In this document: positions 1 through 8,473 of the stretch, piece by piece
Layout: the number at the start of each line of letters is the position of its first letter
Position numbering within the stretch: position 1 is the stretch's first letter
Virus record (IMG/VR): IMGVR_UViG_2579778666_000005
DNA from: a virus
Lineage: Duplodnaviria; Heunggongvirae; Uroviricota; Caudoviricetes
DNA length: 8,473 nucleotides
Direction: 5' to 3' (one strand)
Translations under genes and position numbers: made by a program
Notes under the pieces: model-generated
What the model saw: the letters and a program-made list of their open reading frames with translations, nothing else
Database searches by the model: none
What the model was told of the DNA's origin: nothing

Positions 1-1
1 G

Positions 2-19
2 TAATGCCAGTCAGTTAAG
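2..19. repeat. IS4 terminal inverted repeat (end distal to the transposase start)
   Basis: taatgccagtcagttaag; matches the reverse complement of 1410..1427 (taatgccgatcagttaag) at 16 of 18 positions. Confidence 0.85.
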
Positions 20-1343
20 CAACTGACTGGCTCTTTTTCGGGGCTGTGGGGTATTTCCAGGGCCTCTCCTTTACCACTCTCGGGAAGGCCCTTTCCCTTC
101 TTGTCGGTAATTTCACAAGTTGTCCCATACTTGCAAGATCGCGCATCAGCTCCGGTATACGTCCCGGTGAAGCGCCCTGCAATGTCATCAGCATTCTCAT
201 CACCATTCCGCATGATTCTGAGAAACTCAGTTGATTCGGCCAGTAACCTTTCAGATGTTCCGCCATTTTAATCATCTGATATCTCACCAGATTATAAGCC
301 AGTAAGACACCCCACAGCTCTTGCTCCACAAGCTCCGGCTTTTTACTTCTCAGCGTCAGCCTGCTCCGTTGCATCGTCTGTTTTATCTCCCTGTATCCCA
401 GTTCGATTTCCCAGCGATGACTGTACAGATCCCCCATTTCTCCTCCGGGGAAGCGCATGGCGTCCGTCATCGACGTCAGCAGATGGCAGACTTTTCCTTT
501 GCGCGTCACGGTCAGCAGGCGGGCAGTCACTTCATTTCCCAGTCCCGGCCACTTTTTTCGTGCCTGCGGGCTGGTTTTCAGCTTCACCAGATGATCGCCT
601 TTACCCAGTTTTCTGATCTCTTCATATTGCGCTCCCTTTCTGAGAGGTATCATCCAGTGGCGGTGTTCTCCCGCCAGGCTCCAGGCATTTAACAGTCCCA
701 GTGAGTAATAACCTTTGTCCATTAACGTCAGAGTGTTATCGCCGGTTTGTTCTATAAGTTGCTCAGCAAGCTCATTTTCGCTGTTCTTCATCGTGCCGAA
801 GGCTGCAGCCGTCAGCAGATGGCTGGTCAGTTCCATCTGGCAGACCATTTTGACCTGCGGGTAGAGCGCCGGGTTCCCGGCATGTGTCTGGCGGGGGAAG
901 GCTGCATCGTTCTCTGGTGTATCCGGTGTGCGCCAGAACACACCATCGATGGCCAGCAGGGTCAGGCCGCACCAGTGCGGATGCGGCGTGGCGTTATGCC
1001 AGAGCTGCGCTGTTTTCGTGAACACGCGGCGGACAGCCTCACTTCCCAGGCGCTGGCGGGCCTGAATAACGGCACTGGGGGCAACGAAGGGGCGATTGCC
1101 CGGCAGCATGATGTCCAGGCGATTCACAATCTGGTGAAGAGGTTCTTTACGCTCAAGCGCCATGCCAACAATACACCAGACCATCATTTCGAGGGGAAGA
1201 CGGCGCTTGCGTAGCGTTACAGTACCTGATTCGGCAAGGCAACGAGAGATGAGTTCGGGGTCGAGGTAATCCCCCAGAGAAGTCAGTGGGTTACGCAGAG
1301 AATCGTAACGGGATACCAGATCAAGAGCCTGTCCAATGTGCAT
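15..1343 (-). CDS. insG: IS4 transposase (DDE family), 442 aa
   Basis: The track ORF 15..1361 begins at a TTG. The first ATG is 6 codons in (1341..1343) and gives [40 protein letters not shown]..., which is the IS4 InsG N-terminus as I recall it. Resulting length is 442 aa. Confidence 0.92.
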
Positions 1344-1409
1344 AAAAAAATCCGGAAACAAGTGAGCGTTTCCGGATTCTTACACAGCCACTGGATCGGT
1401 CAACTGATC

Positions 1410-1427
1410 CTTAACTGATCGGCATTA
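1410..1427. repeat. IS4 terminal inverted repeat (end proximal to the transposase start)
   Basis: Reverse complement taatgccgatcagttaag pairs with 2..19 (16/18). Confidence 0.85.
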
Positions 1428-1461
1428 CCTTCAAAGAGGCGGTTTATGTTATCCCATTGGA

Positions 1462-3105
1462 TTAAGATCTACATTCAACTAAAAGGTACACTAATGGACG
1501 TTCTGGCGTCCCATTCTTCTTTGCAACAAAAGCAGATATTTTGTGTTTTGCTATTTTTTGCTTGAGTTTTTTACATAACACTTTGTTTATATAACCAAGT
1601 TTCCCGCTCTCATGAACAACAGCTATAGCATGTGGATCAACCGGGTTATCCTCTTCAGGAACAAGCTTGACCAAATCACCGACCATTACTTTCGACAAAT
1701 CAAGCCCTTCCTGATAACGAGTTCCTGCCACTTCAAAAAGAAGCTCACCTTCACTATTAAGAATTTCTGGATCTGGCACCAAACAAAAACCATCGCCAGG
1801 TGATTTTGCTCCTGTATATCCTAACAGCGCAAAATCAGAGCCTTCAAATGGATGGGGGAGCAAATGTTGAGCCAGATACTCAGCAAAGTCTTTTCTTTTC
1901 CGTGGTGGTAAACGCCGAACAAACGGGTCAAGCACGTTGTTCGTATGTTCTTCACTTTTCAGACTAAATGCGGGATGTCCTGCAAACCCTTTCTCTTGGG
2001 CTTTAGCATAATCTTCTGACTGAAAATGGTATGTGAAGACGTAGTTATCCCCTTGCTGACGATCAATCTGACCAACAACATAACGAGTACCGCCTGTGGG
2101 TGGCTGCCATGTAAGAAGCAACCGAGTAGGCTCCATTATTCTGTTTATAGTACGCATATTTAGAATCAGTGATAACCTTAGGTATCTACGCCTCAATAAA
2201 CGAATCGTCCAATCCGCTCGTTCCCTAGTGAACGGCACATCGGAGCTAATTTCGCAAAGTGAATCTATCTTGTCGACCAGTTCCTGAAAATCAAATTCAA
2301 GTCTCCGGGCCAAGTACGCTTTTGACTGCTCATCAAGAGCCAAATCCTGTATAGAAGAAATATGACCTAATCGTTCATGCGTGTCTGCCCGATTCTTCCG
2401 CAAATGATGACAACCACGCTGTATGTATTCATCTACATTTTGATGGTTCCATCCTCTGATCCTCTCTACATACCTTTCATGCCCCAAACTAGTACCATTA
2501 TCGAAATATGGTGCGAGATATCCCTTCACTTTAGGTGGCGTTATGCCTGGTGCAGATTCAGGTACAAAAACAAAACCCCAATTCTCTTGGTGTCTATCAC
2601 TATTACCGATGAGCGCATCAAAAAGCAGCATATCGTAAAGCCATTGGATCCAGTCTGGAGAGATCAGGCCGCGGATACTAAAAGCCCTACAAATTAAGCG
2701 TAGATCAACAAGGTTATGGTGTCTTCCGGAAGAGTCATCAAAATCCGATATCAACACATGAAAAAAATCAGACGCATGAACAAATAACTGGCTACTTTGA
2801 TCGTAAAACCACTCAAGCAAAGCTCCATATTCGTATTCACCGTTCTCCATCATTCTTCGCGCTGGCAATGCTTTAGGAACAGGAACGCCCATAACATCTC
2901 CAACTATATAAGCAACGGTTTCCATCCAGTACTGATCGGGATAAGCATCTCTTGAGAGTTTAAAAAGATAAGGCCATTCCGGTTTTATCCCCTCAGGAGC
3001 ATCATTCGGTGACCAAAGCATTTTTTTATCCCTCGCTCCTCGAGGAAAAATGCCATGCTCATCATCTTTACGCCAACTAGTTACATCTATTAAATTGATA
3101 TCCAT
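1462..3105 (-). CDS. HipA-like (PI3/4-kinase-fold) protein kinase domain fused to a C-terminal HIRAN domain, 547 aa
   Basis: ATG start at 3103..3105, TAA stop at 1462..1464. Catalytic-loop-like motif LIGNSDRHQENWGF at about residues 164-177 (GNxDxHxxN, HipA_C-like) followed by APYFDNG at about 198-204 (HipA YD-like metal-binding motif). C-terminal NPVDPHAIAVVHESGKLGYINK at about 487-508 resembles the HIRAN signature (NPxDxNAI ... G..GY). Start lies 9 nt downstream of the preceding gene's stop, so probably co-translated. Visibly AT-rich. Confidence 0.8.
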   Translation of the reverse strand: MDINLIDVTSWRKDDEHGIFPRGARDKKMLWSPNDAPEGIKPEWPYLFKLSRDAYPDQYWMETVAYIVGDVMGVPVPKALPARRMMENGEYEYGALLEWFYDQSSQLFVHASDFFHVLISDFDDSSGRHHNLVDLRLICRAFSIRGLISPDWIQWLYDMLLFDALIGNSDRHQENWGFVFVPESAPGITPPKVKGYLAPYFDNGTSLGHERYVERIRGWNHQNVDEYIQRGCHHLRKNRADTHERLGHISSIQDLALDEQSKAYLARRLEFDFQELVDKIDSLCEISSDVPFTRERADWTIRLLRRRYLRLSLILNMRTINRIMEPTRLLLTWQPPTGGTRYVVGQIDRQQGDNYVFTYHFQSEDYAKAQEKGFAGHPAFSLKSEEHTNNVLDPFVRRLPPRKRKDFAEYLAQHLLPHPFEGSDFALLGYTGAKSPGDGFCLVPDPEILNSEGELLFEVAGTRYQEGLDLSKVMVGDLVKLVPEEDNPVDPHAIAVVHESGKLGYINKVLCKKLKQKIAKHKISAFVAKKNGTPERPLVYLLVECRS

Positions 3106-3114
3106 ATCTTACGG

Positions 3115-3666
3115 TTACCCAGCTAATGCACGGAAAGCAGCACTAACATAAGCTACCTGAAACTTTGCATCTCGAAGCGCATGATGCGCATCAGTAACAT
3201 TAATGGAAAAATTTGCCCTTACATCAATATTCTTAAGGCTTTTAGCTAGTTCAACGATGGTACGCACGTCTCGATCATTTCGAAAACGCCATGGGATATT
3301 TTGCGCATGTTTACGGTAAACCGCTGCCAATATAGCGTTATCAAAGCTTGCCCCATTCCCCCAAACTTGTACGTCATCGTTACTACGACTTCGTACAAAT
3401 AGAGAAAATTCTTGTAAGGCTTCATGTAAGTCAACAGCAGACGGGTCATTAAAAACCGCCCTTGCAGAATCGCTTTGTATCATCCACCACTGTAAAGTTT
3501 TTGGGTCTACAAAACTATTTTCCAATGCAGATGATAGGGTTATAACTCTATAAAACTCATCCCCACACTTGCCAGTCAGAGGCTCAAAGAACACAGCGCC
3601 GATTGAAATCAAAGGAGCATCCATTGACACACCTAATGTTTCTATATCGAGCATTAAATTATTCAT
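3115..3666 (-). CDS. DEDDh-family 3'-5' exonuclease (DnaQ/RNase T-like), 183 aa
   Basis: ATG at 3664..3666 preceded by a strong SD (ggaggttaa ATG). All three exo motifs are present: Exo I LDIETLG (D8, E10), Exo II GNGASFDNAIL (D109), Exo III HHALRDA (H161-x4-D166). Stop TAA at 3115..3117. Confidence 0.82.
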   Translation of the reverse strand: MNNLMLDIETLGVSMDAPLISIGAVFFEPLTGKCGDEFYRVITLSSALENSFVDPKTLQWWMIQSDSARAVFNDPSAVDLHEALQEFSLFVRSRSNDDVQVWGNGASFDNAILAAVYRKHAQNIPWRFRNDRDVRTIVELAKSLKNIDVRANFSINVTDAHHALRDAKFQVAYVSAAFRALAG

Positions 3667-3806
3667 TTAACCTCCACCCCAGACATAGCTCAGGGAAACG
3701 TAACCTATTGAAATAACGAATCAAGTATTTGTCACATTCTATACTAAAACATTCGAATTCCAAAACTTCAGCTTTTGCAACCCCTTACAAGTCAATTGAT
3801 CCATAA

Positions 3807-3826
3807 TACTGTATACATACACAGTA
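3807..3826. promoter_or_regulatory. LexA (SOS) box in the intergenic region between gene A and the exonuclease/kinase cassette
   Basis: tactgtatacatacacagta matches the E. coli LexA consensus TACTG(TA)5CAGTA at 18/20, with CTG and CAG separated by 10 nt. It lies about 140 nt upstream of the exonuclease ATG on the coding side. Flanking sigma70 hexamers are ambiguous: TTGACT at 3790..3795 and TAGAAT near 3737..3742 are both plausible pieces but not correctly spaced with each other. Confidence 0.7.
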
Positions 3827-3844
3827 CTACATTTGAAAAACAAA

Positions 3845-6121
3845 TCAAGGGAAATCATTAAAACCCGGCCAATCACAACAAGGCGGATAAACAAATTTTT
3901 TCATGTCATAAATAACTTCTGCCCCACGAGCCAGCGCCTCAAGCTCCCATCTCTGAGGCCTGATACCGTTCTGAGCAAGGTCAACGCGGATACGGGTGAT
4001 TTGCAATCGTTCAGACCGGGTCAGTCTGGCCGATGGTGCAATTTCATGCGGTTTTAACGGGCTTCCGTTTCTTTGCTGACGGTTTGGTCTTCTCAGGCCG
4101 TATTTTAATGCACCTCTGAGCGCCCTCACGACCTCCGGGTCATTCCATTCGATAACACCGTCATCAACCAGATTAAGCACTGCTGCGGCGTGCTCAGAAG
4201 GTTTGGGAGCCGTTAACGAAGTATCACTGCCGGTGAACTTTCCACAGTTATTGACAGGACTCCGAGGCGCGGCGATGCCGCTTTTTAAAGTCAAAGGCTC
4301 AACGACCGGAACTTTCGGCACAATGCGCCAGTCCGTCGTTCTGGTGATATGAATATGACGCGCGCCGAGATGCGGCGCGTAAATGCCGACCACTCTCTCG
4401 ACTTCTTCCTCGTACTCGTTAACGTCATCCGACGGGCTACGGGCGACTCTGACAGTCTGACAATCGCGCGGAACATTTGCCCCACCCTGCGCGCTGATAT
4501 ACAACGCAAAATCACCACTGTCTGCGGCAGCGCGAGCAGCCTCGACGCGTTCGTCAAACTCATCAGCAATACTGACGCCGCGAGGCAATTTGCGTAGTTC
4601 ACGGTAAGCCCCCATTGTCGGCAGTCCAACCGTTTTAAATTGCGGGATGCGCCACGTTGACGCCCATGCGGTAACAGCCGCGGCAGTATCTTTAAGCGGC
4701 TTACCGGTATCGTTATCGAGCTGACCATCCAGTGCATAGCCGTCGATATTTTTTGAAATGTATTTCGCGATATATCCCGCAGCACCGCCCCGGTTAAGGT
4801 GTTTTGCCTGAAAACGGTTTCGCGCGGCTCCTCTTTCGTCGCCATCCTCTTTGAGCGCATAGCGACGCATGATTTCAATAATCTGGTTACGCTGGCGTGG
4901 ATTACAAAAAAGCATCATATGCCAGTGCGGCGTTCCGTCGTGGTGTGGTTCAACAACACGCAAACCGTAGGCCTGTAAATCATTATCCTTGAATGCCGTG
5001 CGCATCAGGCTCCAGATACGGCAGAGATAACGCTGCGCATCCTTTGGATTAAATGCCTCATCATTCCAGCCGTGATTTAGCTGGACGGTTTTACTTTCGC
5101 CTTTTCTGACCTGACGTGTCGGGTGATACTTTGACGGCGCGGTCAGCGTGATAAACATCCCCACATCACCCTCTGCGGCAGCGTAACGCTCAATACCGGC
5201 GATGGTGTTCATCAGCTCCATCCGGCGAATTTCTGGATTAGAAATACTGCCCATCACCTTACTGATAAGGTCGATGCGCTCGCCGGTTTCCCTGTTTTCA
5301 AGGTCACACGATTTAAGAAATTCCAGATTTGCCTGGCGGCGCGCACGCACATCACGAATGGCATGTTTACTGGCATAAGGAGAACGGTCTTTATTGACCT
5401 CCCCGACAGCAATCAGTAACGCCTCATGCCAGCGCATACGCTGGCCTTTAAGCTGATGAGTCCACCATTCATCGTTAAACAGACGGGCAATGGCAGAATA
5501 TGCCTGCCTCGTGGTCATCTGCCCTTTACGGTATTTTTTCCAGTAGAGCGGAGAAATATTGAAAGCACGTGCAGCGCCAGCAACATGACCATAGAGGTGA
5601 GCCTGCGCCTCATCCGTAAACAGCGATTCTTTTTCGCCATGCGCATCCACCCAGGCATCGCAGAGTTCCTCATACATCATGAAAAGCTGCGATGAGATAC
5701 GGGCGGCAAACTTTTTCAGCTCCTTATCATTCATCCCCGGCAGACGCGCATAATGGTCACGCTCTGCCAGAAACAGCAACGACGCGTCGGTGTTCATTTC
5801 ATGGCGCTGATTCACACGCTCAATGCGCGGCCATAAACGACGCTGAAAAGTGGATGTGAGGAAATAAAACCCGTGCACCGGGCTTTTATTGCGCCGGATG
5901 TAGTCATAGCGTGAAGTAAACAGCGAGCGCAAAAAGTAAGGCAGGCGGTTAATCGTGGATAAAACACCTTGCACCTGACGCATCTCGTCACGTGTAAGGG
6001 GTCTTTCGCGCCCGACGGCCTCGCGTGGCGCGTTCCATGCATAAGCACCGGTAAACGTCTTACCGGTGCCTGCGGCAAATGCTGACGGAGGGACAAAACG
6101 CCCGGAGGCTTTAACGGCCAT
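3845..6121 (-). CDS. A: P2-type replication initiation endonuclease gpA (HUH rolling-circle Rep), about 758 aa
   Basis: HUH motif PHWHMMLF (codons for HWH at 4919..4927) and a double-tyrosine motif GYIAKYISK (Tyr codons at 4772..4774 and 4760..4762). N-terminus MAVKASGRFVPPSAF... from the ATG at 6119..6121 matches my recollection of P2 gpA. The track start at 6163 is a TTG that would overlap the upstream gene by more than 50 nt; I prefer the ATG. Confidence 0.88.
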   Translation of the reverse strand: MAVKASGRFVPPSAFAAGTGKTFTGAYAWNAPREAVGRERPLTRDEMRQVQGVLSTINRLPYFLRSLFTSRYDYIRRNKSPVHGFYFLTSTFQRRLWPRIERVNQRHEMNTDASLLFLAERDHYARLPGMNDKELKKFAARISSQLFMMYEELCDAWVDAHGEKESLFTDEAQAHLYGHVAGAARAFNISPLYWKKYRKGQMTTRQAYSAIARLFNDEWWTHQLKGQRMRWHEALLIAVGEVNKDRSPYASKHAIRDVRARRQANLEFLKSCDLENRETGERIDLISKVMGSISNPEIRRMELMNTIAGIERYAAAEGDVGMFITLTAPSKYHPTRQVRKGESKTVQLNHGWNDEAFNPKDAQRYLCRIWSLMRTAFKDNDLQAYGLRVVEPHHDGTPHWHMMLFCNPRQRNQIIEIMRRYALKEDGDERGAARNRFQAKHLNRGGAAGYIAKYISKNIDGYALDGQLDNDTGKPLKDTAAAVTAWASTWRIPQFKTVGLPTMGAYRELRKLPRGVSIADEFDERVEAARAAADSGDFALYISAQGGANVPRDCQTVRVARSPSDDVNEYEEEVERVVGIYAPHLGARHIHITRTTDWRIVPKVPVVEPLTLKSGIAAPRSPVNNCGKFTGSDTSLTAPKPSEHAAAVLNLVDDGVIEWNDPEVVRALRGALKYGLRRPNRQQRNGSPLKPHEIAPSARLTRSERLQITRIRVDLAQNGIRPQRWELEALARGAEVIYDMKKFVYPPCCDWPGFNDFP

Positions 6122-6386
6122 ATGAGCCAAAAGCCTCTGAACAACGCTTGCTGAGTTGCTCAACCTGCGCGTTTAAATCAGCAAAAGACTTTGCGCTTCC
6201 GGTCAGAATATCGTGATGCATCAGGCCGGAAACAAGCTGGCTTAATTTCGGGTAATAACCAACCACCGCCAGCCATTCCTGACCGGCGTTTTTACCGCTT
6301 TCCGCTCTCTTTTTCTCGTGGAGAATAAACTGGAAGCTGTCACTGGTAACGACATAACGTTCGCCAATTTCAATACGAATACTCAT
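6111..6386 (-). CDS. Small conserved early-operon protein, 91 aa; by position the P2 orf83 equivalent
   Basis: ATG start with a GGAG SD 7 nt upstream; ATGA start/stop overlap with the upstream ORF; its 3' end overlaps the gene A start. Function unknown. Confidence 0.7.
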   Translation of the reverse strand: MSIRIEIGERYVVTSDSFQFILHEKKRAESGKNAGQEWLAVVGYYPKLSQLVSGLMHHDILTGSAKSFADLNAQVEQLSKRCSEAFGSYGR

Positions 6387-6607
6387 GCCGTTCTCCGGTA
6401 ATGTTTGTTTTTTGCTTCAAAGACTGACTGACAGGAAACACAACGCGTGGCTGACGGATAAGCCGCACGACGGGCAGCAGGTATTGGCGCGTCACACTCT
6501 TCGCAAACCAGCGCAGAAGCACCGCAATGTTTACCCCTTGCCGCGTTAATCTGGCGCTCCAGTAATTCAGCCTGTTGTTCCTGAATAAAATCTACGTTGT
6601 CCGGCAT
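6383..6607 (-). CDS. TraR/DksA-family C4 zinc-finger protein, 74 aa; by position the P2 orf82 equivalent
   Basis: CxxC-x17-CxxC (CEECDAPIPAARRAAYPSATRCVSC) in a short protein with an acidic N-terminal helix; strong SD (aaggag) 7 nt upstream of the ATG. Confidence 0.75.
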   Translation of the reverse strand: MPDNVDFIQEQQAELLERQINAARGKHCGASALVCEECDAPIPAARRAAYPSATRCVSCQSVFEAKNKHYRRTA

Positions 6608-6609
6608 TA

Positions 6610-6909
6610 TCAGCTCCTTTTATCGTTAAGTTTCCTGGATACATCAGCGCAATAACTGGCGAGTTCTGTCGTTAATTTTGTCAGTTCATCCACTGAGGAA
6701 ATTTGCTTGTGGAATACAGCGCGTTTAACAAGTAAATTGACCACATCAGACAGGAGGTTTAATTCATTCTGATAAATCGCGATAACAGATTCAGTGATGT
6801 CGCGTTTTTCTTTATCAAGACAAAGTTGAATAAGAGACAAATCGCCATTTTCCATAACGGCGATTTTTAAGGCGTTATTCAGTAATACAACTGAATGAGA
6901 ACAGGACAT
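6610..6909 (-). CDS. Hypothetical early-operon protein, 99 aa; by position the P2 orf81 equivalent
   Basis: The track start at 6912 is TTG. The adjacent ATG at 6907..6909 has a GGAGG SD about 9 nt upstream and overlaps the upstream stop (TGATG). Confidence 0.65.
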   Translation of the reverse strand: MSCSHSVVLLNNALKIAVMENGDLSLIQLCLDKEKRDITESVIAIYQNELNLLSDVVNLLVKRAVFHKQISSVDELTKLTTELASYCADVSRKLNDKRS

Positions 6910-7133
6910 CAAAGTACCTCCCCACGAGACAATCCGATATTGTGAAATTTTTCCGACTCCTGACTGAGCAGCTCGACTATCTCCACGCGGGATAACTCCG
7001 CCTTTGTGATGTGGCGAATCATGGCGTCAAGATGAGAAGAAAAGCGCGTCGCAGCGTCAGCCTGTGCTTCGGTTCTGGCCTGTTGCAGCAGTAATGCGTA
7101 TTTACCGCACTGATTTTCAGAAACTGTATGCAT
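6909..7133 (-). CDS. Hypothetical early-operon protein, 74 aa; by position the P2 orf80 equivalent
   Basis: ATG at 7131..7133 with a GGAG SD 8 nt upstream; same strand and operon context. Confidence 0.65.
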
Positions 7134-7196
7134 AATTTTCTCCAGGCAAAAAGAAGCCCCGCACGATTAAGTGCGTTTAAAACTCTGGTTAATTAT

Positions 7197-7697
7197 TTAA
7201 TGCAGATATTGCTCTGGTTTTACCGACGTCAGAATTGTCGGTGCATACTCAAACAGGCTGAATAATTCACGTAATGCACGGAATAAAGCATCACGCCAGT
7301 AACATGACTCTTCATTAATTCGCCAGTATGGCTGGTTGAATTCTTTTTCAGTCAATCCGGCATGCATAAATAAAGTACGACGCTGACTGACTGTTAAAAA
7401 ACTAATATATGCATACTCACTTGCGCCAACCTGACGGCGTTTTGAGAATGCCCCACGCAATTCATCAATTGCACAAACCAGCCGTTCACGTTCGACGTCG
7501 TTCATTTCTTCAAAACGCATCGTTGCATGACGTTGTTTTAACTGCGCATGAAAGCAAACCGTTAGCCGTTCGCGTTCCATCATCTGATTATAATAATCAC
7601 ATGTATCCTGCCAGCGAGGGACGGCCAGATGCTTACCAATTATCCGGCGCATAGCTGCTGGCTGTTTTTCAACGAGATTAAGCGTCATCACTGTCAT
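7197..7697 (-). CDS. B: P2 gpB-like replication protein (helicase-loader role in P2), 166 aa
   Basis: Length 166 aa and N-terminus MTVMTLNLVEKQPAAMRRIIGKHLAVPRWQD... match my recollection of P2 gpB. GGAGGG SD 9 nt upstream; ATGA overlap with the upstream ORF. Confidence 0.8.
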   Translation of the reverse strand: MTVMTLNLVEKQPAAMRRIIGKHLAVPRWQDTCDYYNQMMERERLTVCFHAQLKQRHATMRFEEMNDVERERLVCAIDELRGAFSKRRQVGASEYAYISFLTVSQRRTLFMHAGLTEKEFNQPYWRINEESCYWRDALFRALRELFSLFEYAPTILTSVKPEQYLH

Positions 7698-7864
7698 TTC
7701 CAGACCCTCCGGCTTTTCAGAAAGGTCAGAGCCTTCTTTAACGGACTCTGTTTTTTGGTGCGGATAATGATTCCCTTGCGTCCCTTCCCGTGGGTGATGG
7801 TGAAGTCAATCGCCCTGGGGCTTTCGTTACGCAGTAACTGAGCAATACAACGCGGTTCACTCAT
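7694..7864 (-). CDS. Small basic protein, 56 aa from the ATG at 7864 (65 aa if 7891 is used); by position possibly the P2 orf78 equivalent
   Basis: Lys/Arg-rich C-terminus. The ATG at 7862..7864 overlaps the stop of the truncated upstream ORF (ATGAGTGA), typical of translational coupling. The ATG at 7891 has no SD and an in-frame stop just upstream. Confidence 0.5.
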   Translation of the reverse strand: MSEPRCIAQLLRNESPRAIDFTITHGKGRKGIIIRTKKQSPLKKALTFLKSRRVWK

Positions 7865-8033
7865 AATCACAACCCCATCCACAAAAGCCATGCATCACGC
7901 TGTTCAACTGGTCGGTTATAAAACGCCTCTCGTACAGCGCGATTAAACTCTGGAATGAAAACCCACTTCTCACCGACACGGGCGTTCGGCTTACTTGGAT
8001 CACGAAGCTCAATAACTGGCAATTTATTCTCTT
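7857..8033 (-). pseudogene. 3' fragment (58 codons plus stop) of an early-operon gene truncated by the IS629-like insertion; possibly a cox-like first gene
   Basis: One minus-strand frame is open from the IS junction (8033) to a TGA at 7857..7859, giving KRINCQLLSFVIQVSRTPVSVRSGFSFQSLIALYERRFITDQLNSVMHGFCGWGCDYE*. It has no start codon in the prophage-derived sequence. The sequence does not match my recollection of P2 Cox, so identity is uncertain. Confidence 0.4.
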
Positions 8034-8087
8034 TGAACCGCCCCGGGAATCCTGGAGACTAAACTTCCTGAGAAAGAGGTAAACAGG

Positions 8088-8414
8088 ATGACTAAAAATA
8101 CTCGTTTTTCCCCCGAAGTCCGTCAGAGGGCGATTCGTATGGTTCTGGAAAGTCAGGGCGAATATGACTCACAGTGGGCGGCAATTTGTTCCATTGCCCC
8201 AAAGATTGGCTGTACACCGGAGACTCTGCGTGTCTGGGTACGCCAGCATGAGCGGGATACCGGAGGCGGTGATGGCGGGCTCACCACCGCTGAACGTCAG
8301 CGTCTGAAAGAGCTGGAACGTGAAAATCGTGAACTGCGCCGCAGTAACGATATCCTTCGCCAGGCTTCCGCTTATTTTGCGAAGGCGGAGTTCGACCGCC
8401 TCTGGAAAAAATGA
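8088..8414 (+). CDS. IS3-family transposase OrfA (HTH and leucine-zipper part), 108 aa, IS629-like
   Basis: [85 protein letters not shown]... matches IS629 OrfA as I recall it to within a few residues. ATG with an upstream GAGG/AGG. Confidence 0.9.
8406..8411 (+). other. Putative programmed -1 ribosomal frameshift slippery run (A6) at the orfA/orfB junction
   Basis: gg aaa aaa tga: the A6 run at 8406..8411 sits immediately before the orfA stop with orfB open in the -1 frame. This is the arrangement IS3-family elements use to make the OrfAB fusion transposase. Confidence 0.5.
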
Positions 8415-8473
8415 TGCCACTGCTGGATAAGCTGCGTGAGCAGTACGGGGTCGGACCGCTATGCAGCGAACTG
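8411..8473 (+). CDS. IS3-family transposase OrfB, 5' end only (truncated by the window), in the -1 frame relative to OrfA
   Basis: [21 protein letters not shown] begins at the ATGATG at 8411, overlapping the orfA stop; classic orfA/orfB arrangement. Confidence 0.8.

What the first reader, a model, noticed from the sequence alone, without database searches (positions are those of the whole stretch)
1462..3666. Compositional discontinuity: AT-rich cargo against a GC-richer prophage backbone
Hand counts on single 60-nt lines give about 33-40% GC inside the cassette (lines starting at 1561 and 2701) versus about 53% in gene A (line starting at 4381). The switch coincides with the gene A / cassette boundary, consistent with recent horizontal acquisition. 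These are spot counts, not a full-window calculation.
Basis: seen in the sequence. Interest (0 to 1): 0.4.

Follow-up and report, generated by a model that had tools for sequence, protein, structure and literature searches.

The report
AT-rich cargo cassette in P2 prophage
The AT-rich block is real and is the swappable cargo slot of a P2-like prophage, here holding an exonuclease and a HipA-type kinase fused to a DNA-end-binding domain; this slot and this exact cassette have already been catalogued, so the finding is correct but ordinary.

Summary
Positions 1462-3666 are 42.1% GC (GC3 0.33) and gene A is 52.5% (GC3 0.53). Unsupervised change points fall at about 1290 and 3918. The block is the variable gpA-gpQ (tin/old) hotspot cargo of a P2-like prophage. 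It comprises a LexA box, a promoter, a DEDDh 3'-5' exonuclease (3115-3666, minus strand) and a HipL-type kinase (1462-3105, minus strand; HipA-like core, HipS-like domain, HIRAN). In this window the prophage is a 6.6 kb remnant cut by IS4 (left) and an IS3-family element (right). Horizontal exchange is supported by evidence better than GC. The cassette occurs in 61 of 5426 complete E. coli genomes, whereas gene A occurs in 1726. It is 100% identical to phage 899 through position 4202, after which the backbone diverges 2-3%. Its codon usage is uncorrelated with the host's. Low GC is not a clock: every cargo examined at this hotspot, and this gene family in 73 of 79 loci across phyla, is AT-richer than its flanks. 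Rousset et al. 2022 cloned this cassette (pFR108, "Exonuclease + HipA") and did not list it among validated defence systems. The conserved SOS box may explain that result. Function as an SOS-gated abortive-infection kinase is inferred, not shown.

The parts
1..1427 (-). IS4 element (partial in the window; transposase ORF 15-1361). It replaces the cos/portal side of the prophage. Its terminal inverted repeat ends at 1427.
   Evidence: Pfam Nterm_IS4 and DDE_Tnp_1. The match to intact prophages starts at 1428. IS4 annotation lies under the hits. Sequence read.
1428..1461 (-). Truncated 3' untranslated end of hipL. Only one arm of the rho-independent terminator hairpin survives. The intact form in the published pFR108 clone reads AAAAAAAAAACCGCCTTCAAAGAGGCGGTTT.
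   Evidence: Exact 58-nt match of window 1428-1485 to the published pFR108 insert. Sequence read.
1462..3105 (-). [quoted passage not shown]
   Evidence: Pfam HIRAN 41.2 bits, Couple_hipA 26.7 bits, HipA_C 25.8 bits (below the 30.5 cut-off). PADLOC PDC-M03A and PDC-M03B both hit within the one protein. AF2 model pLDDT 88.6, pTM 0.89. Foldseek matches CtkA, HipA and HipT for the kinase and HLTF HIRAN for the C-terminus. Catalytic and HIRAN motifs are invariant in 27 homologues.
3115..3666 (-). exo: a 183-aa DEDDh 3'-5' exonuclease (Rv2179c-like, formerly DUF5051; relative of a 227-aa 'Exodeoxyribonuclease' in PDB entry 8KEL). It ends 9 nt before the hipL start codon.
   Evidence: Pfam PF16473, 192 bits, E = 7e-57. 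PDB entry 8kel 'Exodeoxyribonuclease', E = 1.7e-5. D7, E9, D109, H161 and D166 are invariant in 8 orthologues. Exo identity tracks HipL identity across loci.
3667..3844 (-). Cassette control region (34% GC): Shine-Dalgarno GGAGG, a conserved 5' leader, and the promoter and LexA box listed separately.
   Evidence: Sequence read. Conserved with Serratia sp. H1w and a Proteus P2-like prophage.
3736..3763 (-). Sigma-70-like promoter TTGGAA-16 nt-TAGAAT. It is conserved in the closest orthologous cassettes.
   Evidence: Consensus scan. Alignment. It is a consensus match only; transcription was not measured.
3807..3826 (.). LexA (SOS) box TACTGTGTATGTATACAGTA. It matches the consensus at 18 of 20 positions and lies 141 nt upstream of the exo start codon.
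   Evidence: 0 of 200 shuffles give a match with 3 or fewer mismatches. It is conserved upstream of exo in L005, L010, L011 and L015, and it is absent from four P2-like phages carrying other cargo and from the stretch just downstream of gene A in P2.
3845..6163 (-). P2 replication initiator gene A (RefSeq-style start at 6121). It is the GC-richer backbone flank. The last approximately 15-75 nt lie in the transition zone.
   Evidence: Pfam Phage_GPA, 408 bits. Annotation. Homology break mapped.
6111..8034 (-). Remaining P2 early genes: orf83-like, TraR/DksA zinc finger, orf81-like, orf80-like, gene B, orf78-like and a 3' fragment of cox.
   Evidence: Pfam. Annotation of L001 and L002. P2 map.
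8035..8473 (+). Left end of an IS3-family element (orfA 8088-8414; frameshift pseudoknot 8369-8473) that truncates cox.
   Evidence: Pfam HTH_Tnp_1. Rfam ALIL pseudoknot, 93 bits. The prophage match ends at 8028-8034. IS3-family annotation.

Best explanation
SHOWN. The AT-rich block is the exchangeable cargo cassette of the gpA-gpQ (tin/old) hotspot of a P2-like prophage (Peduovirus). It is a self-contained unit of LexA box, promoter, DEDDh 3'-5' exonuclease gene, hipL gene and terminator. It has moved between P2-like backbones by homologous recombination in the conserved flanks (the 3' end of gene A on one side, the cos/Q region on the other). Its base composition and codon usage differ from both phage and host, as they do for every other cargo examined at this site. 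In this window the prophage has decayed to a 6.6 kb remnant. IS4 sits 34 nt past the hipL stop codon and an IS3-family element sits in cox. Both cassette genes are intact.

INFERRED, about 45% for this specific mechanism. The cassette is a lysogenic-conversion module that works as an SOS-gated abortive-infection or growth-arrest switch.
- LexA keeps the operon low.
- DNA damage or phage replication intermediates derepress it.
- The HIRAN domain of HipL binds free 3'-OH DNA ends.
- Binding relieves inhibition in cis by the HipS-like domain.
- The HipA-type kinase then phosphorylates an essential translation factor. Aminoacyl-tRNA synthetases are the targets of HipA and HipT.
- The co-inherited exonuclease trims 3' ends and so sets the activation threshold, acting as an antitoxin-like buffer.
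For: Position and identity:
- In intact relatives (phage 899, E. coli 20AR1039, TUM9757) the order is gene A, exo, hipL, cos, portal.
- The locus is the published P2 hotspot (PMC9122126).
- Other P2-like phages share the flanks but carry different cargo.

Composition:
- 42% versus 52.5% GC, GC3 0.33 versus 0.53, change points at about 1290 and 3918.
- RSCU r = -0.04 with host genes and 9.8% rare codons.

Exchange:
- The cassette is in 61 genomes and gene A in 1726.
- There are 0 mismatches over 1428-4202 against phage 899, then 2-3% divergence.

Proteins:
- Pfam and PADLOC hits, invariant catalytic motifs, AF2 model and Foldseek matches.
- HipL architecture is as defined in PMC8262856.

Operon unit:
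- Exo and HipL are co-inherited, with parallel identities from 89/85% down to 45/56%.
- The intergenic distance is 9 nt.

SOS box:
- 18 of 20 consensus positions.
- It is cassette-specific and position-conserved.

Defence context:
- PADLOC candidate system PDC-M03.
- DEDD nucleases sit next to HipA and HIRAN genes in Actinobacteria (PMC11706625).
Against: Function:
- The same cassette (pFR108, 'Exonuclease + HipA', from E. coli TA255) was cloned with its native promoter and tested against eight phages.
- It is listed only among 'additional tested systems', not validated ones (PMC9122126 Table S2B).
- No kinase target, toxicity or DNA-end activation has been shown for any HipL (one search found no experimental paper).

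LexA box:
- It lies 44 nt upstream of the -35 of the only conserved promoter-like site. This is not the classic overlapping position, and no conserved promoter overlapping the box was found.
- In Klebsiella and Atlantibacter the box precedes an orf62-dinI pair rather than exo.
- L016 and L018 carry exo but no box.

Exo is dispensable in most of the family. An Aeromonas HipL and about 70 split hipIN loci lack it.

Pfam HipA_C scores below its gathering cut-off (25.8 versus 30.5 bits). The kinase assignment therefore rests on fold and motifs.
Confidence: 0.8

Rival explanations
1. The low GC reflects standing selection on this class of gene rather than the composition of a recent donor. Possible causes include H-NS-type silencing of costly toxin genes, mutational bias in mobile DNA, and amino-acid composition. 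On this view the cassette could be an old resident of P2-like phages.
For: - The hipL/hipIN module is below its flanks in 73 of 79 loci from many phyla (median -5.6 points, Wilcoxon p = 5e-13). Its GC tracks each host, ranging 34-66%.
- All six cargos at this hotspot are 35.5-44% GC, including P2's tin and old.
- GC1 and GC2 are also lower than in gene A.
Against: - The zero-mismatch tract ending at 4202, against a 2-3% diverged backbone, shows a recent exchange in this lineage whatever the GC.
- The cassette is rare among P2-like prophages of E. coli.
- The two views are compatible: a persistent AT bias plus frequent swapping.
Confidence: 0.35
2. The cassette came from low-GC Enterobacterales (the Proteus/Morganellaceae type), where it is compositionally at home. 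It is caught in E. coli before its composition has drifted toward the host's.
For: - In Proteus the exo-hipL unit is 39.1% and 33.9% GC, against flanks of 41.5% and 35.3% (differences of only -2.4 and -1.4 points).
- In Serratia, Klebsiella, Atlantibacter and E. coli contexts it is 8-11 points below the flanks.
- The Proteus P2-like copy is 80-85% identical in protein, and its control region aligns.
Against: - The closest relative found is in Serratia sp. H1w (86-89% identity), not Proteus.
- The sample is only a handful of loci.
- The family-wide AT offset explains the pattern without naming a donor.
Confidence: 0.2
3. The cassette is not anti-phage defence. It could be a prophage-stabilising toxin-antitoxin-like addiction module, with HipL as toxin and the HipS-like domain and/or exo as antidote. 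Alternatively it could serve the phage itself, for example by processing 3' ends during rolling-circle replication or by exo degrading host immune nucleotide signals.
For: - No protection was reported for the cloned cassette (PMC9122126 Table S2B).
- HipA-family kinases are classic TA toxins.
- The cassette is co-oriented with the early replication operon, and no terminator was detected after gene A. It could therefore be read through during lytic growth.
- The exo's closest solved relative is a 227-aa 'Exodeoxyribonuclease' (PDB 8KEL). From my own knowledge, not checked here, this matches phage T4 DexA, a phage-encoded enzyme.
Against: - The cassette sits in the slot that holds validated defence genes (old, tin, and others), and it hits a PADLOC candidate system.
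- It survives intact in a dead prophage remnant that can no longer replicate as a phage (this window). That argues against a purely lytic-cycle role.
- The exo-hipL pair also occurs outside prophages, next to ahpCF in Proteus.
Confidence: 0.25
4. The step is a local fluctuation, or an artefact of the IS4 insertion having brought in passenger DNA.
For: - The left change point (about 1290) falls inside IS4.
- The backbone has other low-GC genes.
Against: - LLR is 25.5, against a null maximum of 10.3, and z = 7.
- The same gene A-cassette junction exists, base for base, in intact phages without IS4.
Confidence: 0.02

Closest known systems
P2 old/tin locus: the gpA-gpQ defence hotspot of P2-like phages (Rousset et al. 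2022, PMC9122126)
   Same: - Same genomic slot, between replication gene A and cos/portal Q.
- AT-rich, non-essential, variable cargo (tin 32.9% and old 34.8% GC, against 50.2% for P2).
- This very cassette is catalogued there as 'DUF5051 + HIRAN' (WP_001774096 + WP_001774097). It was cloned as pFR108, 'Exonuclease + HipA'.
   Different: - old and tin are transcribed leftward from a promoter near cosR. exo-hipL is co-oriented with gene A.
- old and tin have proven exclusion phenotypes. This cassette has none reported.
- A LexA box is present here and absent just downstream of gene A in P2 and in four other cargos.
HipL kinases (Gerdes, Baerentsen and Brodersen 2021, PMC8262856)
   Same: - Three-domain order: N-terminal core kinase, HipS-like domain, C-terminal HIRAN.
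- It lacks HipA's N-subdomain-1 at the N-terminus.
- Core kinase motifs are conserved.
   Different: - HipL was described as monocistronic. Here, and in 8 other distinct loci found (9 counting the window), an exonuclease gene is co-inherited immediately upstream.
- The SOS box and the P2 hotspot context are not mentioned in the passages of that paper that were read.
hipIN two-gene modules / PADLOC candidate PDC-M03
   Same: - Same kinase and HipS-HIRAN components (PDC-M03A at E = 4e-31 and PDC-M03B at E = 1e-30, both on the one protein).
- Split versions share 30-56% identity and are spread across many phyla.
   Different: - Here the two genes are fused into one ORF.
- PDC-M03 is only a candidate system with no experimental support.
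HipBST and HipBA toxin-antitoxin systems
   Same: - HipA-fold kinase (Foldseek).
- A HipS-like module homologous to HipA N-subdomain-1. In HipBST this module neutralises the kinase.
   Different: - There is no HipB (helix-turn-helix) gene.
- The HipS-like part is fused C-terminal to the kinase.
- A HIRAN domain is added.
- From my recollection of the HipA P-loop (SVAGAQEK), not tested here: the HipL P-loop-like motif GARDK has no serine at the position of HipA's autophosphorylated Ser150 (HipL reads FPRGARDK).
diDNase-HipA-HIRAN gene clusters of Actinobacteria (PMC11706625)
   Same: A DEDD-superfamily exonuclease gene lies directly adjacent to HipA-domain and HIRAN-domain genes on mobile elements.
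   Different: - Different phylum, and the kinase and HIRAN genes are split.
- Whether the window's Rv2179c-like exo is orthologous to the diDNases, or shares their dinucleotide specificity, was not tested. That paper does not mention Rv2179c or PF16473.
Coliphage 186 tum, under the LexA-controlled promoter p95 (from my own knowledge, not checked here)
   Same: A LexA-regulated accessory transcription unit near the right end of a P2-family genome, downstream of the replication gene.
   Different: - tum encodes an antirepressor that makes 186 SOS-inducible.
- Here the box precedes exo-hipL, and the phage has a P2-type C/Cox switch.
- The orf62-dinI pair after the box in the Klebsiella and Atlantibacter loci may be tum-like.

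Membership tests
P2-like gpA-gpQ hotspot cargo | Lies between replication gene A and cos/portal gene Q | tested here: met
   The gene A side is present in the window (3845). The Q side is replaced by IS4 here, but it is present with the identical cassette in phage 899, 20AR1039 and TUM9757.
P2-like gpA-gpQ hotspot cargo | Conserved flanks and a variable interior among P2-like phages | tested here: met
   Of 92 phage records matching, only 2 hold the interior. Homology breaks at about window 3860 and about 35 nt from cos. Four other phages carry unrelated cargo.
P2-like gpA-gpQ hotspot cargo | Anti-phage activity of the cargo | not testable with these tools
   The published test of the same cassette (pFR108) did not place it among validated systems.
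HipL kinase family | HipA-type core kinase with conserved catalytic motifs at the N-terminus | tested here: met
   - GN(S/T)DRHQENWG and DNGTSLG are invariant in 27 sequences.
- Foldseek: CtkA E = 9e-11 with target TM-score 0.75; HipA and HipT E = 1e-6 to 1e-4.
- Pfam HipA_C is only 25.8 bits, below its 30.5 cut-off.
HipL kinase family | Internal HipS-like domain | tested here: met
   Pfam Couple_hipA, 26.7 bits (cut-off 22.5), residues 343-437. PDC-M03B covers residues 325-545.
HipL kinase family | C-terminal HIRAN domain | tested here: met
   Pfam HIRAN, 41.2 bits (cut-off 24.7). Foldseek HLTF HIRAN, rmsd 2.6-3.1 A. AGTRY and N..D..A motifs are invariant.
HipL kinase family | Monocistronic operon | tested here: not met
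   An exonuclease gene lies 9 nt upstream on the same strand and is co-inherited in 9 distinct loci, counting the window. An Aeromonas HipL is solitary.
HipL kinase family | Kinase activity and growth inhibition | not testable with these tools
   No experimental paper on HipL was found.
HipBA type II toxin-antitoxin | Adjacent HipB helix-turn-helix antitoxin gene | tested here: not met
   There are only two ORFs in the cassette and neither has an HTH domain.
PADLOC PDC-M03 (candidate defence system) | Both components A (kinase) and B (HipS-HIRAN) present and adjacent | tested here: met
   Both profiles hit, but within one fused protein. The system itself is an unvalidated candidate.
DEDDh 3'-5' exonuclease, Rv2179c-like (PF16473) | Family profile match and the DEDDh catalytic residues | tested here: met
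   192 bits against a cut-off of 27. D7, E9, D109, H161 and D166 are invariant in 8 orthologues.
LexA (SOS) regulon | CTGT-N8-ACAG operator close to consensus in the control region | tested here: met
   18 of 20 consensus positions at 3807-3826, with 0 of 200 shuffles matching. It is conserved in orthologous cassettes.
LexA (SOS) regulon | LexA binding and DNA-damage induction | not testable with these tools
   The box lies 44 nt upstream of the -35 of the predicted promoter, which is an atypical position.
diDNase-HipA-HIRAN cluster | The exonuclease belongs to the diDNase subfamily (dinucleotide-specific active site) | not tested
   No diDNase sequence was compared. Only the gene-neighbourhood analogy was noted.

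The most novel reading that the evidence does not exclude
The exo-hipL cassette is an SOS-gated, DNA-end-sensing abortive-infection system.
- LexA holds it off.
- RecA activation during phage attack or DNA damage turns it on.
- The HIRAN domain detects 3'-OH ends of phage replication or degradation intermediates and releases the in-cis HipS-like brake on the kinase.
- The co-inherited DEDDh exonuclease acts as an enzymatic antitoxin by erasing the activating ligand.

The published negative screen would then be a false negative. The cause would be LexA repression from the cloned native control region, or a phage panel lacking the trigger.
Probability: 0.25. Interest if true: 0.6.

Novelty: already known. 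Interest (0 to 1): 0.25.

Why it matters
As a compositional finding it adds little. AT-rich cargo at the P2 A-Q hotspot is textbook, and this cassette is already in a published catalogue.

It is still a clean worked example of two points:
- A GC step marks cargo, but it does not date the acquisition.
- The mosaic identity tract (0 mismatches, then 2-3%) dates the exchange better than GC does.

The by-products are more useful:
- An unrecognised LexA box sits in front of a HipL kinase operon.
- The DEDDh exonuclease is co-inherited with HipL.

Together they suggest a concrete reason why the system scored negative in the one published test. They also give a testable model for what HIRAN-linked HipA kinases sense.

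Tried and rejected
- An exact-match scan of GTDB genome contigs for the IS4/hipL junction found nothing. Megablast of both IS junctions against 5426 complete E. coli genomes found neither. The source strain remains unidentified.
- I looked for a conserved sigma-70 promoter overlapping the LexA box, as in recA. None is conserved across the orthologous control regions (reading).
- The 5' leader (3660-3735) does not fold better than shuffles (z = 0.93). Rfam found only the IS3 frameshift pseudoknot.
- Literature searches for experimental work on HipL, PDC-M03 or HIRAN-kinase defence found none. One apparent hit was a false match to 'Hirano'.
- A search for the HipL protein string in the Rousset supplement found nothing. 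Identity of the cloned insert was confirmed instead through its DNA end and primer.
- I considered and rejected the idea that IS4 brought the cassette in as passenger DNA. The junction with gene A is identical in IS-free phages.
- I considered and rejected the idea that the LexA box belongs to the P2 backbone. It is absent from P2's post-gene-A region and from four other cargos.
Full report
OBSERVATION

The three spot counts are exact: 33.3%, 40.0% and 53.3%. Over the full stretch, 1462-3666 is 42.1% GC and gene A (3845-6163) is 52.5%. The third-codon-position GC is 0.34 in hipL, 0.31 in exo and 0.53 in gene A. The 300-nt profile drops to 0.34-0.39 at 3501-4000 and rises to 0.53 by 3901-4200. 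Likelihood-ratio segmentation, run without annotation, returns a low-GC segment at 1291-3918 (41.5% GC).

WHAT THE WINDOW IS

- Positions 1-1427 are IS4 (Pfam).
- Positions 1428-8034 match P2-like prophages at 98.5% identity.
- From about 8035 an IS3-family element begins (HTH_Tnp_1; ALIL frameshift pseudoknot).

The prophage piece carries a truncated cox, orf78-like, B, orf80-83-like genes and A in P2 order. Two further genes follow on the same strand:

- A 183-aa Rv2179c-like DEDDh exonuclease (PF16473, 192 bits).
- A 547-aa protein with HipA_C, Couple_hipA and HIRAN matches.

In intact relatives the order is gene A, exo, this protein, cos, portal Q. These relatives are Escherichia phage 899, Yersinia phage GMG73, and E. 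coli 20AR1039 and TUM9757. This is the cos-proximal gpA-gpQ hotspot of P2-like phages, which holds old and tin in P2 itself (PMC9122126; P2 map).

BOUNDARIES

- Homology with other P2-like phages stops within the last codons of gene A, at about window 3860.
- It resumes about 35 nt from the cos cleavage site.
- In the window, IS4 has replaced everything beyond 34 nt past the hipL stop codon. It cuts the terminator hairpin, whose intact form is seen in the pFR108 sequence.

IS THE BACKBONE GC-RICH?

On the whole, yes. Phage 899 is 51.5% GC overall, 52.3% without the cassette region, and 41.5% for the cassette region. The early region in the window, however, averages 45.6%, and conserved P2 genes fall to 38-44%. 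The same is true in P2.

Codon usage separates cargo from low-GC backbone:

- Early small genes correlate with host genes: RSCU r = 0.75.
- Gene A correlates with host genes: r = 0.77.
- The cassette does not: r = -0.04 with host genes and -0.34 with phage late genes.
- The cassette uses 9.8% E. coli-rare codons, against 2-4% elsewhere.

HORIZONTAL ACQUISITION

- The cassette is in 61 of 5426 complete E. coli genomes, all at least 99% identical. Gene A is in 1726 genomes, mostly at 95-99% identity.
- Against phage 899 the window has no mismatch from 1428 to 4202. It then has 44 mismatches in the rest of gene A (1.9% over the gene) and 2.8% in the early genes. The pattern against strain 20AR1039 is the same.
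- This sharp change in divergence, about 360 nt inside gene A, is the footprint of a recent recombinational swap of the cassette onto diverged backbones.

Recent exchange is therefore supported, but by this evidence rather than by GC. GC itself is not a clock:

- All six cargos examined at this hotspot are 35.5-44% GC, against 53-55% for gene A.
- In 79 loci from Proteobacteria, Planctomycetota, Nitrospirota, Spirochaetota and others, the homologous module is below its flanks in 73. The median difference is -5.6 points (p = 5e-13). The module's GC follows the host over 34-66%.
- In Proteus the cassette is almost at the local GC (-1.4 and -2.4 points). This is compatible with, but does not prove, an origin in low-GC Enterobacterales.

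THE PROTEINS

The 547-aa protein has the HipL architecture of Gerdes et al. (PMC8262856): kinase core, then a HipS-like domain, then HIRAN.

- The AF2 model is confident (pLDDT 88.6, pTM 0.89).
- Foldseek matches the H. pylori HipA-like kinase CtkA (target TM-score 0.75), and HipA and HipT, for the N-terminal part. It matches HLTF HIRAN for the C-terminus.
- The catalytic loop GN(S/T)DRHQENWG, the DNG Mg-binding motif and the HIRAN AGTRY and N..D..A motifs are invariant in 27 homologues sharing 40-89% identity.
- PADLOC places its two halves in components A and B of candidate system PDC-M03.
- Fused forms are mainly in Enterobacterales and Aeromonas. Two-gene hipIN forms are widespread.

The exonuclease keeps all five DEDDh residues. 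Its closest solved relative is a 227-aa 'Exodeoxyribonuclease' in PDB entry 8KEL.

Exo is co-inherited with HipL in 8 other distinct loci (9 counting the window). The identities run in parallel, from 89/85% down to 45/56%. The set includes a non-prophage Proteus site and a Shewanella locus with a split kinase and HipS-HIRAN pair. Exo is absent from more distant relatives and from a solitary Aeromonas HipL that sits between a CI-type repressor and an integrase. An analogous adjacency of a DEDD nuclease with HipA and HIRAN genes is reported in Actinobacteria (PMC11706625).

THE CONTROL REGION

The 178-nt spacer holds a LexA box, TACTGTGTATGTATACAGTA, at 3807-3826. It matches the consensus at 18 of 20 positions, and no shuffle produced a comparable match. 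A sigma-70-like promoter, TTGGAA-16-TAGAAT, lies at 3763-3736.

- Box, promoter, leader and Shine-Dalgarno sequence align with the Serratia sp. H1w and Proteus P2-like copies.
- In each of L005, L010, L011 and L015, the only CTGT-N8-ACAG in about 11 kb lies upstream of exo. The background rate is 0.011 per 450 nt.
- Four P2-like phages with other cargo have none in the A-Q region, and P2's only site lies inside old. The box therefore belongs to the cassette.

Caveats:

- The box is 44 nt upstream of the -35, not overlapping it.
- In Klebsiella and Atlantibacter it precedes an orf62-dinI pair.
- Two exo-bearing loci lack it.

PRIOR KNOWLEDGE

Rousset et al. list this arrangement as 'DUF5051 + HIRAN', with the same exonuclease accession as. 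They cloned it as pFR108, 'Exonuclease + HipA', from E. coli TA255.

- The published insert end matches window 1428-1485 exactly.
- The gene-specific part of their primer matches 3951-3970, so the clone included the LexA box and promoter.
- It appears in Table S2B ('additional tested systems'). The three newly validated P2 systems are other cassettes.
- No experimental paper on HipL was found.

MECHANISM

Shown:

- A self-contained, horizontally exchanged two-gene operon.
- Intact catalytic motifs in both proteins.
- A near-consensus, position-conserved LexA box.

Inferred, about 45%:

- SOS-gated expression.
- HIRAN sensing of 3'-OH DNA ends, relieving HipS-like inhibition in cis of a HipA-type kinase that arrests translation.
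- The exonuclease buffering the ligand.

Rivals are a prophage-addiction role, a role in the phage's own cycle, and a counter-defence role for the exonuclease. The negative published screen weighs against defence. It is also what LexA repression of the native control region would produce.

VERDICT

The phenomenon (AT-rich cargo at the P2 A-Q hotspot) and this specific cassette are already described. The LexA box and the exo-HipL co-inheritance are modest new leads.

Noticed in passing
window 3807-3826: A near-consensus LexA (SOS) box, TACTGTGTATGTATACAGTA, lies upstream of the exo-hipL operon. It is conserved in orthologous cassettes in Serratia and Proteus and absent from P2-like phages with other cargo. 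It was not mentioned in any of the passages read from the papers consulted here.
   Followed up: yes
window 1427/1428 and 1428-1461: IS4 is inserted 34 nt past the hipL stop codon, inside the stem of the rho-independent terminator. It removes cos, Q and all late genes. hipL now lacks its terminator and reads into the IS4 end.
   Followed up: partly
window 4203 (inside gene A): The tract of perfect identity to phage 899 runs from 1428 to 4202, followed by 2-3% divergence. This marks a recombination breakpoint about 360 nt inside gene A's 3' end. E. coli TUM9757 shares both gene A and the cassette, with 3 mismatches over 1428-6121.
   Followed up: yes
window 7867-8034 and 8035-8473: An IS3-family element (orfA 8088-8414; ALIL frameshift pseudoknot 8369-8473) truncates cox. 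The repressor C and integrase side of the prophage is therefore missing from the window. Neither IS junction exists in any of 5426 complete E. coli genomes or in GTDB representative genomes.
   Followed up: partly
window 6610-6912 and 7197-7697: Conserved P2 backbone genes (orf81-like DUF5405 and gene B) are only 38% and 44% GC, in this phage and in P2 alike. They nevertheless keep host-like codon usage. Low GC alone would misclassify them as cargo.
   Followed up: yes
L009 5001-6617 (Aeromonas salmonicida prophage): A solitary HipL (41% identity) sits 26 nt downstream of a CI-type repressor (HTH plus S24 peptidase) and upstream of the integrase, with no exonuclease. This is a different link to an SOS-sensitive repressor.
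   Followed up: no
L018 4432-6639 (Shewanella MAG): Here the exonuclease accompanies a split kinase and HipS-HIRAN pair. The exo association is therefore older than, or independent of, the gene fusion.
   Followed up: no
L003 (phage 899) 6600-9750: A second low-GC island (down to 34%) with two hypothetical genes lies at the position of P2's fun(Z) hotspot, between tail-fibre assembly and the sheath gene. It is outside the window.
   Followed up: no
L007/L008 3751-4278 (Klebsiella P2-like prophages): In these loci the LexA box is followed by a 62-aa ORF and a DinI-family gene before exo-hipL. Extra cargo (PIN_12 or DUF4145) follows hipL. The arrangement may be a tum-like SOS module stacked with the cassette.
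   Followed up: no
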